64,000 bases of DNA from Candidatus Babelota bacterium (GTDB lineage Bacteria; Babelota; Babeliae; Babelales; Vermiphilaceae), in contig RXKB01000001.1 in NCBI GenBank assembly GCA_003963225.1, positions 105,957-169,956 of the forward strand, written 5' to 3'. The notes below the pieces were generated by a model. The model had not been told where the DNA came from. It saw only the letters and a list, made by a program, of their open reading frames with translations, and searched no databases. A program made the translations under genes and the position numbers. Shown here in pieces: positions 45,364 to 45,799 of the stretch; the first letter of the stretch is position 1; every line of letters starts with the position of its first letter.

Positions 45364-45515
45364 ACAAAAATCCAAGGTGATTCAAGTGTACGACAACATG
45401 TTGATGGGCGGCTGCTCTACCGCTGAGCTACAACCCGCCAGAGGCGAATATGGCAGGATTCGAACCTGCGACCAGCCGCGGGATTTTGATGAACGTCATA
45501 CGATTACATCCTTGG
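45364..45515 (-). ncRNA. Y RNA-like RNA, long form with a permuted tRNA-like domain (Yl-3)
   Basis: The module is CCAAGG-AUGUAAUC-GUAUGACG / UGUCGUAC-ACUUGAAUCA-CCUUGG. The interior holds GCGGC-UGGUC-GCAGG-UUCGAAU-CCUGC, the acceptor AUUCGCC-UCU-GGCGGGU, the D arm UAGCUCAGCGGUAGAGC and GCCGC. Confidence 0.7.
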
Positions 45516-45657
45516 AAAAGGAATCGGGAAGAACAGACAGAAGACATTGTTTTAGGTGCTTTAACCGCTAAGCTACCCCGGCGTTGAAGCCGAGGGTGGG
45601 ATTCGAACCCACGACACCCGCTTAATAGGCGATGAACGTCTTCCAATTACTTTCCCG
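45516..45657 (-). ncRNA. Y RNA-like RNA, long form with a permuted tRNA-like domain (Yl-2)
   Basis: The module is CGGGAA-AGUAAUU-GGAAGACG / UGUCUUCU-GUCUGUUC-UUCCCG. The interior holds a T arm (GUGGG-UUCGAAU-CCCAC), the acceptor CCUCGGC-UUCAAC-GCCGGGG and a D arm (GCUUAGCGGUUAAAGC). Confidence 0.7.
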
Positions 45658-45799
45658 AAAAACAAAAGAGGGAGAACAGGCGAGCCCCATTTTTTTAGCG
45701 TGCTGCCATTACACCACCGACCCGTCGAATGGGCCAGCCAGGATTCGAACCTGGACCTCTCGTTCCTATAACGATGAACGAGACTCAATTACTTCCCTC
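45658..45799 (-). ncRNA. Y RNA-like RNA, long form with a permuted tRNA-like domain (Yl-1)
   Basis: The module is GAGGGA-AGUAAUU-GAGUCUCG / UGGGGCUC-GCCUGUUC-UCCCUC. The interior holds a T arm (CCAGG-UUCGAAU-CCUGG) and the acceptor CUGGCCC-AUUCGAC-GGGUCGG. Confidence 0.7.

What the first reader, a model, noticed from the sequence alone, without database searches (positions are those of the whole stretch)
45364..45799. Long-form units contain a circularly permuted tRNA: T arm, then a closed acceptor helix, then a D arm
Four units carry the same interior layout: the three at 45364-45799 and 43972-44112. In transcription order the interior reads:
- a variable-loop-like pentamer (AGGUC, UGGUC or GUGUC);
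- a canonical T arm (GUUGG-, CCAGG-, GUGGG- or GCAGG-UUCGAAU- plus its partner);
- the 3' acceptor strand, a 3-7 nt loop, then the 5' acceptor strand, 7 bp each (CUCUGGC/GCCAGAG, CUGGCCC/GGGUCGG, CCUCGGC/GCCGGGG, AUUCGCC/GGCGGGU);
- a canonical D arm (for example UAGCUCAGCGGUAGAGC).

The 3' tRNA half therefore precedes the 5' half and the acceptor end is capped. The RNA chain leaves the domain where the anticodon stem would be. In 45364-45515 that position is a perfect GCCGC/GCGGC helix.

As far as I recall, this is the topology of the tRNA-like domain of YrlA-class bacterial Y RNAs. The alternative is that these are true permuted tRNA genes needing cleavage in the acceptor loop. That would be unprecedented for a phage and would connect to the phage-encoded CCA-adding enzyme at 33688..35760.
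Basis: partly seen in the sequence, partly recalled or inferred. Interest (0 to 1): 0.8.

Follow-up and report, generated by a model that had tools for sequence, protein, structure and literature searches.

The report
Phage Y RNAs with tRNA-like domains
The four "permuted tRNA" units are real, but they are YrlA-type Y RNAs, the known tRNA-mimicking partner RNAs of the Ro60 protein encoded right next to them, so this is a well-supported new example of a known RNA class and not a new kind of tRNA gene.

Summary
**Observation: confirmed.** Four minus-strand units have the order V hairpin/loop, T arm, closed acceptor helix, D arm. They lie at 45668-45799, 45525-45657, 45373-45514 and 43981-44112. 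In each, the tRNA-like domain sits on a two-helix stem formed by the RNA's own ends.

**Conservation.** The same four classes, in the same order, occur upstream of the Ro60 gene in eight related ~180-226 kb contigs.
- 27 of 30 helix pairs show compensatory changes.
- The tertiary 15:48 pair switches between G:C and A:U.
- Re-joining the halves in tRNA order makes ARAGORN call a tRNA in 29 of 30 units. It calls none in native order.

**Interpretation: supported.** A TROVE/Ro60 gene (41814-43499) lies on the same strand, 30 nt to 2.3 kb downstream of the units. Rfam YrlA gives the only family hits, though below threshold. The literature already describes YrlAs as circularly permuted tRNAs with closed acceptor stems. 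Caulobacter phage CcrColossus carries a similar array.

**Differences from described YrlAs.**
- A-N-GUAA replaces the GNCGAA motif.
- Four long and four short units form one array.
- Two classes keep an acceptor stem of exactly 7 bp.

Loop cleavage plus CCA addition has a precedent in M. smegmatis YrlA. It remains an open, non-exclusive possibility here. A decoding tRNA is not supported.

The parts
45668..45799 (-). Long unit U1 (YrlA-like, 132 nt). Stem1 45792-45799/45668-45674; stem2 45780-45786/45682-45688; GUUCAUC plus V hairpin 45754-45779; T arm 45738-45753; closed 7-bp acceptor hairpin 45717-45737; D arm 45700-45714.
   Evidence: Own covariance model (CM) 126.8 bits. Sub-feature coordinates. 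Fold. Orthologues in 8 loci.
45525..45657 (-). Long unit U2 (YrlA-like, 133 nt). T arm 45596-45612; closed 7-bp acceptor hairpin 45576-45595; D arm 45558-45573; V hairpin UCGC-CUAUUAA-GCGG within 45613-45637.
   Evidence: Own CM 125.9 bits. Rfam YrlA 34.8 bits, E = 4.7e-5. Acceptor stem is 7 bp in 7 of 7 orthologues.
45373..45514 (-). Long unit U3 (YrlA-like, 142 nt). T arm 45453-45469; acceptor-like helix with UCU cap 45431-45452; D arm 45414-45428; 5-bp anticodon-stem-like closing helix GCGGC/GCCGC.
   Evidence: Own CM 83.5 bits. Rfam YrlA 36.7 bits, E = 1.3e-5. Orthologues carry 6-9 bp helices, often with GCAA or GUGA caps.
43981..44112 (-). Long unit U4 (YrlA-like, 132 nt). T arm 44047-44063; closed 7-bp acceptor hairpin 44027-44046; D arm 44010-44024; V hairpin within 44064-44092.
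   Evidence: Own CM 115 bits. Rfam YrlA 27.8 bits, E = 0.005. Acceptor stem is 7 bp in 5 of 6 orthologues.
43905..43970 (-). Short unit (YrlB-like). It has the same stem1 / GUAA loop / stem2 / GUUCAUC module but no tRNA-like domain.
   Evidence: Own CM 33.7 bits, E = 1.3e-6 with filters off. Fold z = -3.7.
43824..43892 (-). Short unit (YrlB-like).
   Evidence: Own CM 48.6 bits. Fold z = -3.7.
43739..43815 (-). Short unit (YrlB-like, more divergent).
   Evidence: Own CM 21-22 bits, E = 7.5e-4. Orthologues found.
43530..43597 (-). Short unit (YrlB-like) directly upstream of the Ro60 start codon.
   Evidence: Own CM 27.3 bits, E = 4.3e-5. It is 98% identical in L003.
41814..43499 (-). Ro60/Rsr orthologue (TROVE plus vWA, 561 aa), the presumed protein partner of all eight units.
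   Evidence: Pfam TROVE E = 6.6e-18. Solved-structure matches 9KOP/9L5Y (phiLo Ro60) at 7e-15 and 2NVO (Rsr) at 1e-5. Homologues are listed.
45885..45912 (-). Sigma-70-like promoter match TTGACT-16-CATAAT, about 85 nt upstream of U1. It is a candidate promoter for the array.
   Evidence: 10 of 12 consensus match. This is a consensus match only.
33688..35760 (-). Class II tRNA nucleotidyltransferase (CCA-adding-like, with an HD domain, 690 aa) in the same conserved gene neighbourhood.
   Evidence: Pfam PolyA_pol, PolyA_pol_RNAbd and HD. Best NCBIfam match is the multifunctional CCA addition/repair protein, below its cut-off. PolyA_pol sits in the same position in L009.

Best explanation
**What the units are.** The four long units are YrlA-type Y RNAs, the non-coding RNA partners of the Ro60 (Rsr) protein encoded just downstream on the same strand.

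**Anatomy.** Each unit is about 132-142 nt.
- Its 5' and 3' ends pair into two helices separated by a conserved internal loop.
- The invariant elements are A-N-G-UAA on the 5' side, UC on the 3' side, a covarying N:N' pair followed by a fixed G:C pair, and GUUCAUC after stem 2.
- This module is shared with the four short units and is the likely Ro60 docking site.
- The apical part folds into a tRNA-like L-shape whose strand order is (V hairpin)-variable loop-T arm-closed acceptor helix-D arm.

**Expression.** The eight units are probably transcribed as one precursor from a sigma-70-like promoter upstream of U1, then cut into single RNAs.

**Function.** By analogy with D. radiodurans, S. Typhimurium and Thermus phage phiLo, each RNA would bind phage Ro60. 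Its tRNA-like elbow would recruit a tRNA-binding effector or the host exoribonuclease PNPase. The phage would thereby redirect structured-RNA surveillance or decay during infection.

**Shown here:** the secondary structure, the tRNA-like tertiary signature, conservation and covariation, linkage to Ro60, and resemblance to YrlA.

**Inferred:** expression, processing, Ro60 binding, and the identity of the effector.
For: - **Linkage.** A TROVE/Ro60 gene lies on the same strand, 30 nt to 2.3 kb downstream.
- **Family resemblance.** Rfam YrlA is the only family matching U2, U3 and U4.
- **Secondary structure.** 24 of 29 pairs are compensatory on an unfitted alignment. On the fitted alignment 27 of 30 pairs are compensatory and 98.5% of cells are paired, against about 45% for slid controls.
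- **tRNA core.** U8 in 29/30 units; A14 in 30/30; GG in the D loop in 30/30; T loop UUCRANU in 30/30. The Levitt pair is G:C in 16, A:U in 11 and other in 3, with switches inside each class.
- **Permutation test.** Re-permuted units are called tRNA by ARAGORN in 29 of 30 cases. Shuffled segments and native order give 0.
- **Conserved organisation.** The same four classes occur in the same order in related genomes whose Ro60 is 54-86% identical.
- **Shared module.** The short units match the model end to end with the tRNA domain deleted.
- **Independent phage example.** The model, trained only on this clade, finds at least 5 tandem units (85 to 22 bits) upstream of the Ro60 gene of Caulobacter phage CcrColossus.
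- **Literature.** YrlAs lie within 4 kb of rsr on the same strand, have a V stem-loop, T arm, closed acceptor stem and D arm, show Levitt covariation, and occur in phages (PMC4201824). The crystal structure of the domain is described as a circularly permuted tRNA (bioRxiv 10.1101/312249). phiLo Ro60 binds phage Y-like RNAs and host PNPase (PMC12135203).
Against: - Rfam YrlA scores are about half the gathering score, and U1 gets no YrlA hit at all.
- The published 5' motif GNCGAAN0-1G is absent from all 30 long and 28 short units.
- Only U3 has a clear anticodon-stem-like closing helix.
- No expression, end-mapping or binding data exist for this uncultured genome.
- The nearest phage-record Ro60 (LR745206, 38.6% identity) shows no such RNA within 6 kb.
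Confidence: 0.85

Rival explanations
1. **Processed two-piece tRNA mimic.** This is not exclusive of the Y RNA reading. In U2 and U4, and in most U1 orthologues, host RNase P would cut in the acceptor loop 5' of G+1. The 3' acceptor strand would be trimmed to the discriminator base. The co-located phage nucleotidyltransferase would then add CCA. The result would be a nicked, CCA-ended tRNA mimic still held together by its helices and by Ro60.
For: - M. smegmatis YrlA, the one studied YrlA with a 7-bp acceptor stem, is cleaved by RNase P in vitro and in vivo and gains CCA (PMC4201824).
- The acceptor stem here is exactly 7 bp in 7 of 7 U2 orthologues and 5 of 6 U4 orthologues, even though the stem sequences covary freely.
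- In the acceptor loops of the U1, U2 and U4 classes, loop position -2 is A in 20 of 22 units, position -1 is C in 14 of 22, and the first two loop bases are mostly U/A then U. This suggests selection on the loop.
- In the four window units the first base of the 5' acceptor strand is G in U1, U2 and U4 and C in U3 as delimited.
- A CCA-adding-like enzyme lies in the same conserved neighbourhood.
Against: - U3-class helices are 6-9 bp with GNRA or triloop caps, and U1 varies from 5 to 9 bp, so cleavage cannot be general.
- The loops do not encode CCA.
- The nucleotidyltransferase could simply serve ordinary phage tRNAs. The tRNA-Met genes in the same array in L004 and L010 lack an encoded CCA.
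- There are no end-mapping data.
Confidence: 0.25
2. **True permuted tRNA genes.** The 3' half precedes the 5' half, as in Cyanidioschyzon merolae, and processing would yield decoding tRNAs.
For: - Re-permuted sequences pass ARAGORN as tRNAs, using the V hairpin as the anticodon arm.
- In U2 and U4 that hairpin has a 4-bp stem and a 7-8 nt loop, and is followed by a class-I-like variable loop such as AGGUC.
Against: - The would-be anticodon is not conserved among orthologues of one class: U2 has AUU, GUA or UGU; U4 has CAU, GCA or AUC.
- The same hairpin occurs in the short units, which have no tRNA domain. It is therefore part of the Y RNA module.
- U3 has no such hairpin.
- Every unit carries the conserved Ro60-type stem module and sits next to Ro60.
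- A genuine tRNA-Met gene in normal order sits in the same array in relatives.
Confidence: 0.02
3. **Artefact of tandem or decayed tRNA genes.** The T arm of one tRNA and the D arm of the next would read as a YrlA. Chen et al. warned of this false positive.
For: - The units lie in a region that also holds tRNA genes in relatives.
- The published origin model derives YrlA from dimeric tRNA transcripts.
Against: - There is no D arm or 5' acceptor strand upstream of any T arm, and no T arm downstream of any D arm.
- ARAGORN and Rfam tRNA find no tRNA in the window.
- The 3' and 5' acceptor strands of a single unit pair with each other and covary.
- The flanking stems 1 and 2 covary, which decayed genes would not maintain.
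Confidence: 0.02
4. **Free tRNA decoys acting without Ro60.** For example, they could absorb host tRNA-targeting nucleases or tRNA-modifying and tRNA-binding defence proteins.
For: - The tRNA elbow is strongly conserved.
- Four distinct classes are each kept across the clade.
- Jumbo phages commonly carry counter-measures to tRNA-directed attack (PMC7824862).
Against: - There is no conserved anticodon loop, which is the usual target of anticodon nucleases.
- The stem module shared with the short units, and the invariable linkage to Ro60 here and in CcrColossus, argue for a Ro60 ribonucleoprotein.
Confidence: 0.05

Closest known systems
YrlA of Salmonella Typhimurium and its orthologues (Rfam RF02553; Chen et al. 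2014, PMC4201824; tRNA-like domain structure PDB 6CU1, bioRxiv 10.1101/312249)
   Same: - Encoded next to rsr on the same strand.
- A terminal stem with an internal loop carries the tRNA-like domain.
- Strand order is V, T arm, closed acceptor stem-loop, D arm.
- Shares the D arm sequence UAGCUCA..GGUAGAGC, the T loop UUCGA, U8/A14/G18G19, and a compensatory Levitt pair.
   Different: - The 5' motif is A-N-GUAA-Y-N-G, not GNCGAAN0-1G (0 of 58 units match).
- Scores are only 28-37 bits against a gathering score of 69.
- An invariant GUUCAUC follows stem 2.
- Only one of the four classes has a clear anticodon-stem-like helix.
- There are eight units in one array, compared with YrlA plus YrlB in Salmonella.
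Mycobacterium smegmatis YrlA/YrlB (PMC4201824)
   Same: [quoted passage not shown]
- The 7-bp acceptor stem matches U1, U2 and U4.
   Different: [quoted passage not shown] In M. smegmatis only CA needs to be added, whereas the loops here begin with U/A then U and have no C.
Caulobacter phage CcrColossus rsr-upstream RNAs (NC_019406, locus L015 4995-5951)
   Same: - An array of at least 5 tandem units directly upstream of the phage Ro60 gene on the same strand.
- The units match the model built from this clade end to end (85, 70, 59-69, 42 and 22 bits).
- Same module layout, the same V hairpin (UCGA-CUGUUAA-UCGA) and the same 3' CUGUUC.
   Different: - The 5' motif is GGCGUAG and the motif after stem 2 is GUUCUUCG or UACUUCG.
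- Its Ro60 is only about 29% identical.
- One of its units overlaps an annotated tRNA-Gln.
Thermus phage phiLo Ro60 with Yrl1/Yrl2 (PMC12135203; PDB 9KOP, 9L5Y)
   Same: - A phage Ro60 with Y-like RNAs encoded just upstream.
- It is the best solved-structure match to the window's Ro60 (E = 7e-15).
- It offers a mechanism by analogy: a Ro60-Y RNA-host PNPase complex.
   Different: Yrl1 and Yrl2 were picked by a CGAA motif and a stem-bulge-stem shape. The passages read do not mention a tRNA-like domain. There are two RNAs, not eight.
Circularly permuted tRNA genes of Cyanidioschyzon merolae (Soma et al. 2007, from my own knowledge)
   Same: The 3' tRNA half is encoded upstream of the 5' half.
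   Different: Those genes give normal decoding tRNAs through a circular intermediate, and their acceptor ends are opened. Here the acceptor end is capped, there is no conserved anticodon, and the RNA stays attached to a Ro60-type stem.

Membership tests
YrlA-type Y RNA (Chen et al. 2014; Rfam RF02553) | Encoded within about 4 kb of a Ro60/TROVE gene, on the same strand | tested here: met
   The units lie at 43530-45799 (-) and Ro60 at 41814-43499 (-). The arrangement is the same in 8 related loci.
YrlA-type Y RNA (Chen et al. 2014; Rfam RF02553) | Conserved T stem-loop, then a closed stem-loop (acceptor-like), then a conserved D stem-loop | tested here: met
   All three helices are supported by covariation. 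T loop UUCRANU in 30/30 units and GG in the D loop in 30/30.
YrlA-type Y RNA (Chen et al. 2014; Rfam RF02553) | tRNA tertiary signature, including a compensatory Levitt 15:48 pair | tested here: met
   G:C in 16, A:U in 11 and other in 3 of 30 units, with switches within each class. U8 in 29/30 and A14 in 30/30.
YrlA-type Y RNA (Chen et al. 2014; Rfam RF02553) | GNCGAAN0-1G motif near the 5' end (putative Rsr contact) | tested here: not met
   0 of 30 long and 0 of 28 short units match. An invariant A-N-GUAA-Y-N-G occupies the equivalent place.
YrlA-type Y RNA (Chen et al. 2014; Rfam RF02553) | Score at or above the Rfam gathering threshold (69 bits) | tested here: not met
   36.7, 34.8 and 27.8 bits for U3, U2 and U4; no hit for U1. 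The CcrColossus unit also scores only 42.3 bits.
YrlA-type Y RNA (Chen et al. 2014; Rfam RF02553) | Bound by Ro60/Rsr; modified by TruB and DusA | not testable with these tools
   This needs immunoprecipitation or EMSA, and pseudouridine and dihydrouridine mapping.
Canonical tRNA gene | Cloverleaf in 5' acceptor-D-anticodon-T-3' acceptor order, detectable by tRNA finders | tested here: not met
   ARAGORN finds 0 genes in the window. Rfam tRNA finds nothing at the gathering score. Native-order segments give 0 calls.
Permuted tRNA gene giving a decoding tRNA | An intact anticodon arm with an anticodon conserved among orthologues | tested here: not met
   The loop of the hairpin in the anticodon-arm position varies in sequence and in length (7-10 nt) within each class and is absent in U3.
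Permuted tRNA gene giving a decoding tRNA | Processing that opens the acceptor end and joins the other break | not testable with these tools
   This needs RNA end mapping and detection of circular junctions.
Ro60/Rsr protein (partner gene) | TROVE (HEAT-repeat ring) domain followed by a vWA domain | tested here: met
   TROVE scores 65.6 bits (cut-off 23). vWA_Ro60 scores 24.8 bits, just under its cut-off of 27.7. The match to phiLo Ro60 covers residues 61-543.

The most novel reading that the evidence does not exclude
The U2 and U4 classes, and most U1 orthologues, keep an acceptor stem of exactly tRNA length and a semi-conserved loop. The reason would be that host RNase P cuts them in that loop and the neighbouring phage nucleotidyltransferase re-tails them with CCA. 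The product would be a nicked, CCA-ended and possibly chargeable tRNA mimic displayed on phage Ro60. That would be a phage-programmed split tRNA mimic that could engage synthetases, EF-Tu, ribosomes or tRNA-directed defence systems.
Probability: 0.2. Interest if true: 0.7.

Novelty: new member of a known kind. Interest (0 to 1): 0.35.

Why it matters
- **Correct annotation.** The finding settles what this gene-poor 2.3 kb stretch is: an operon-like array of eight Ro60 partner RNAs. Gene callers place spurious ORFs over them, and tRNA finders occasionally mis-call them.
- **A comparative data set.** Four paralogous YrlA classes, each conserved across a clade whose Ro60 is 54-86% identical, are rich material for an open question in the field: what binds the tRNA-like domain of YrlA. 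Constraints that differ by class point to more than one partner or fate. U2 and U4 keep a strict 7-bp acceptor stem, U3 has GNRA-capped helices, and U1 has a distinct D arm.
- **A gap in Rfam.** The Ro60-docking module differs from the published GNCGAA motif, and these RNAs and those of CcrColossus score below threshold, so the current Rfam model appears to under-detect this phage-type variant.
- **A testable link.** The nearby CCA-adding-like enzyme makes the cleavage-and-CCA pathway seen in M. smegmatis testable in a phage setting.

Tried and rejected
- **Standard finders.** ARAGORN and Rfam at gathering thresholds on the whole window found nothing.
- **Close relatives.** Megablast of the region against GenBank phages gave no match. 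Pattern-based locus searches with Ro60 gave one distant locus in IMG/VR and none in the GTDB genomes. Relatives were reached through exact-protein look-ups instead.
- **First alignment.** A MAFFT alignment of the four window units alone was too poor to use.
- **Short units.** RNAalifold on a MAFFT alignment of the short units predicted no pairs because the 3' ends were staggered. I did not build a separate short-unit model. I relied on full-length matches of the long-unit model with the tRNA domain deleted.
- **Four-arm idea.** I considered that the hairpin 5' of the variable loop makes these complete four-arm permuted tRNAs broken at position 26/27. I rejected this as a new feature for three reasons. 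The hairpin also occurs in the short units and in CcrColossus. Its loop varies. Chen et al. already describe a stem-loop upstream of the T arm, which they call V.
- **Closing helices.** A 3-bp closing helix in U2 (GGU/ACC, UGU/ACA, AGC/GCU) and a 2-bp one in U1 were seen by eye only and were not tested statistically.
- **Further units.** I looked in 40121-40761 and 45800-47120 for more units. The model found none (best 9-11 bits).
- **Literature.** Two Wolin-lab reviews and the supplementary tables of Chen et al. are not held, so I could not check how many YrlAs per phage were reported.
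Full report
**1. What is in the sequence**

The units lie on the minus strand. Read 5' to 3', each of the four long units has this order:
- a 7-8 bp terminal stem;
- an internal loop;
- a second 7-8 bp stem;
- the heptamer GUUCAUC;
- in U1, U2 and U4 a small hairpin;
- a 4-5 nt variable-loop-like segment (AGGUC, GUGUC or UGGUC);
- a 5-bp T stem with the loop UUCGAAU;
- the 3' acceptor strand, a 3-7 nt loop, then the 5' acceptor strand;
- two nucleotides (UA or UG);
- a 4-bp D stem with a GG-containing loop;
- an A-rich linker;
- the 3' strands of the two stems.

Exact limits are 45668-45799 (U1), 45525-45657 (U2), 45373-45514 (U3) and 43981-44112 (U4).

The undecamer GGTTCGAATCC occurs four times in the 64 kb window, only in these units, against 0.05 expected. 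Unconstrained folding of U1, U2 and U4 returns the terminal stems, the T arm and the acceptor hairpin.

**2. Conservation and covariation**

The neighbouring protein (below) is identical to an NCBI entry labelled as a Candidatus Dependentiae MAG, on a 226 kb contig. It has relatives at 54-86% identity on contigs of up to 182-226 kb from other metagenomes.

In every related locus with enough upstream sequence, the gene-free stretch before that protein holds the same kinds of units on the same strand.

| Test | Result |
|---|---|
| MAFFT alignment of 21 long units, RNAalifold | 29 pairs, 24 with compensatory changes |
| Covariance model on the window | the four long units at 83-127 bits; no other long unit in 64 kb |
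| Covariance model on related loci | four long units per full-length locus, same order, 30 in all (L006 is cut at the contig end; L011 has three and L012 two) |
| Model-fitted alignment | 98.5% of cells paired; 27 of 30 pairs compensatory |
| Same alignment, partners slid by 1-3 columns | about 45% paired; 8-13 pairs compensatory |

The fitted alignment leans towards the structure it was fitted to. The unfitted alignment gives the same answer.

**3. tRNA likeness**

Across the 30 units:
- U8 is kept in 29;
- A14 is kept in 30;
- GG in the D loop is kept in 30;
- the T loop UUCRANU is kept in 30;
- the tertiary 15:48 Levitt pair is G:C in 16, A:U in 11 and something else in 3, and it switches between the two forms inside each class.

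I re-joined each unit in tRNA order: 5' acceptor strand and D arm first, then hairpin, variable loop, T arm and 3' acceptor strand. ARAGORN then called a tRNA in 29 of 30 units. The same joins with shuffled segments, and the native order, gave none. The phrase "circularly permuted tRNA" is therefore an accurate description of the domain.

**4. What the units are**

The gene directly downstream on the same strand (41814-43499) is a Ro60/Rsr orthologue.
- Pfam TROVE scores 65.6 bits against a cut-off of 23, with a vWA_Ro60 match just under its cut-off.
- The best solved-structure relatives are Thermus phage phiLo Ro60 and D. radiodurans Rsr.

Rfam's YrlA model is the only family that matches U3, U2 and U4 (36.7, 34.8 and 27.8 bits; E = 1e-5 to 5e-3 for the 4 kb searched). 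These scores are well below the gathering score of 69, and U1 gets no hit.

The published description of YrlA fits point for point (PMC4201824):
- encoded within 4 kb of rsr on the same strand;
- nearly invariant T and D stem-loops with a non-conserved closed stem-loop between them that corresponds to the acceptor stem;
- often a fourth stem-loop upstream of the T arm, called V;
- Levitt-pair compensation;
- present in 254 bacteria and 22 phages.

**5. The rest of the array**

Four short units (43905-43970, 43824-43892, 43739-43815 and 43530-43597) share stem 1, the internal loop, stem 2 and GUUCAUC, but lack the tRNA-like domain. The long-unit model aligns to them end to end. They correspond to YrlB-type partners.

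In locus L011 the unit at the U4 position keeps U4-like stems but has lost the tRNA domain (52.4 bits). This shows how a short form can arise from a long one.

The shared module is a covarying N:N' pair and a fixed G:C pair closing stem 1. Invariant positions are A6, G8, U9, A10 and A11 on the 5' side, then G22-U-U-C-A-U-C after stem 2, and U153-C154 on the 3' side. I take this to be the Ro60 docking site. That is an inference.

A promoter-like TTGACT-16-CATAAT lies about 85 nt upstream of U1.

**6. How it differs from described YrlAs**

- The GNCGAAN0-1G motif is absent from all 58 units.
- Only the U3 class has a clear 5-bp anticodon-stem-like helix.
- The acceptor stem is exactly 7 bp in 7 of 7 U2 orthologues and 5 of 6 U4 orthologues, although its sequence covaries freely.
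- U1 ranges from 5 to 9 bp. U3 has 6-9 bp helices, often capped by GCAA or GUGA.
- Loops of the U1, U2 and U4 classes are semi-conserved, roughly (A/U)UUYRAC, with A at position -2 in 20 of 22 units.

These features are not unique to this clade. The model trained only on it finds at least five tandem units (85 to 22 bits) upstream of the Ro60 gene of Caulobacter phage CcrColossus. Those units have the same layout, with motifs GGCGUAG, GUUCUUCG and CUGUUC. A later paper lists CcrColossus among the phages with reported Y-like RNAs (PMC12135203). I therefore rate this as a new member of a known kind.

**7. The alternative reading**

A decoding permuted tRNA is not supported.
- The loop of the hairpin in the anticodon-arm position varies in sequence and length within each class.
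- The same hairpin occurs in the short units.
- U3 lacks it.
- Relatives carry an ordinary tRNA-Met in the same array.

A tandem-tRNA artefact is excluded. The two acceptor strands of one unit pair with each other and covary, and no complementary halves flank the units.

Cleavage in the acceptor loop is a real possibility, but it does not oppose the Y RNA reading. M. smegmatis YrlA has a 7-bp stem, is cut by RNase P, and gains CCA. Two further observations keep this open: the strict 7-bp stems of U2 and U4, and a CCA-adding-like nucleotidyltransferase at 33688-35760 in a neighbourhood conserved in relatives. I put it at about 0.2-0.25. The enzyme may equally serve ordinary tRNAs, because the tRNA-Met genes of L004 and L010 lack an encoded CCA.

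**8. Mechanism**

Shown here: the structure, the tRNA-like core, conservation, and linkage to Ro60.

Inferred from the family:
- the RNAs bind phage Ro60 through the stem module;
- the tRNA-like elbow recruits an effector;
- by analogy with the Ro60-Y RNA-PNPase complexes of D. radiodurans, S. Typhimurium and phage phiLo, the phage would re-target host structured-RNA decay.

Four conserved classes with different constraints suggest more than one partner or fate.

**9. Origin of the window**

PHROG hits to a DNA polymerase, a DnaB-like helicase, head-decoration and tail-fibre proteins are consistent with a jumbo phage. So are the recurrent contigs of up to 211-226 kb and a nearest GenBank phage hit to a 635 kb uncultured phage. 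The origin is not proven, and the NCBI record is binned as Dependentiae.

**10. Verdict**

The finding is a well-documented instance of a known class, with some variant features and one open, testable processing hypothesis.

Noticed in passing
window 45130-45207 (-) and 44553-45140 (+); L011 4770-5490: An unusual tRNA(CAU)-like gene with an encoded CCA and a weak D arm (Rfam tRNA 21.9 bits, missed by ARAGORN) abuts an HNH endonuclease ORF on the opposite strand. Other relatives have a normal tRNA-Met(CAU) at this position. The whole cassette is nearly identical in L011, within a 1557-bp alignment at 91% identity, although the two Ro60 proteins are only 56% identical. This looks like a recently transferred homing-endonuclease cassette.
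   Followed up: partly
window about 44253-44392 (-); L006 55-199, L010 5322-5472, L011 5573-5716: A conserved RNA of about 135 nt ends in ...ACGGGGGACCA. It has a 7-bp acceptor-like stem (CUCCCGU/ACGGGGG). In L006 it also has a T arm (GAAGG-UUCGUUA-CCUUC) and a D-arm-like 5' part, with a conserved insert of about 70 nt (GAAUGGGA, GGAGACGUCC, UUCGGUAA). It could be a long tRNA-like RNA. ARAGORN does not call it and it has no Rfam match.
   Followed up: partly
window about 44115-44250 (-); all related loci: A conserved non-coding element of about 150 nt lies just upstream of U4 (..ACAACGCCUGUGAGGGGUGUUGAAUAGGUGGUACUGGUUCCACC..GGGCAAUCAUG..CGUGAUUGCCCU.AAACCAGAC). It has no Rfam match.
   Followed up: no
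window about 45205-45370 (-); L010 5085-5250, L011 4597-4770, L012 5166-5380: A conserved element of about 165 nt follows U3 (GUCUCC...GGGAGAC and GGAAGU...ACUUCC pairings around a variable hairpin). It is present in some relatives and absent in others. It has no Rfam match.
   Followed up: no
window about 44385-44490 (-); L009 5127-5237 (92% identical), L011 5485-5580: A conserved element of about 100 nt has a closing stem AGCGAC/GUCGCU and a GCGCUUCGGCGC hairpin. In L009 it lies directly after the tRNA-Met.
   Followed up: no
window 45930-47120 (-): About 1.2 kb upstream of the array has no credible ORF, and parts of it are conserved in relatives (islands at 46055-46174, 46615-46695 and 47055-47129). 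A GUUCAUC-containing hairpin near 46960-47000 resembles a degenerate short unit, but the model does not find it.
   Followed up: partly
window 45632-46150 (+); L002 gene calls at 3350-4322: A 172-aa ORF and two smaller called genes lie antisense over U1-U3. They have no family hits and are most likely spurious calls over RNA genes.
   Followed up: partly
L003 5249-5320; L015 (CcrColossus) 5170-5237: ARAGORN calls a tRNA-Cys inside the U4 orthologue of L003. In the CcrColossus record an annotated tRNA-Gln overlaps a YrlA-like unit. These units can therefore be mis-annotated as tRNAs.
   Followed up: partly
window 33688-41679 (-): A conserved gene string lies downstream of Ro60: a 305-aa unknown, an isochorismatase/nicotinamidase-like protein (268 aa), a 263-aa unknown, a PP2C phosphatase, a 576-aa unknown (faint protein-kinase signal in L012) and the CCA-adding-like enzyme. 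It may be a functional module with the Ro60 ribonucleoprotein.
   Followed up: partly
L013 (LR745206.1, 635 kb uncultured phage): This is the closest Ro60 in GenBank phage records (38.6% identity). Neither Rfam nor the model built here finds a YrlA-like RNA within 6 kb on either side.
   Followed up: partly
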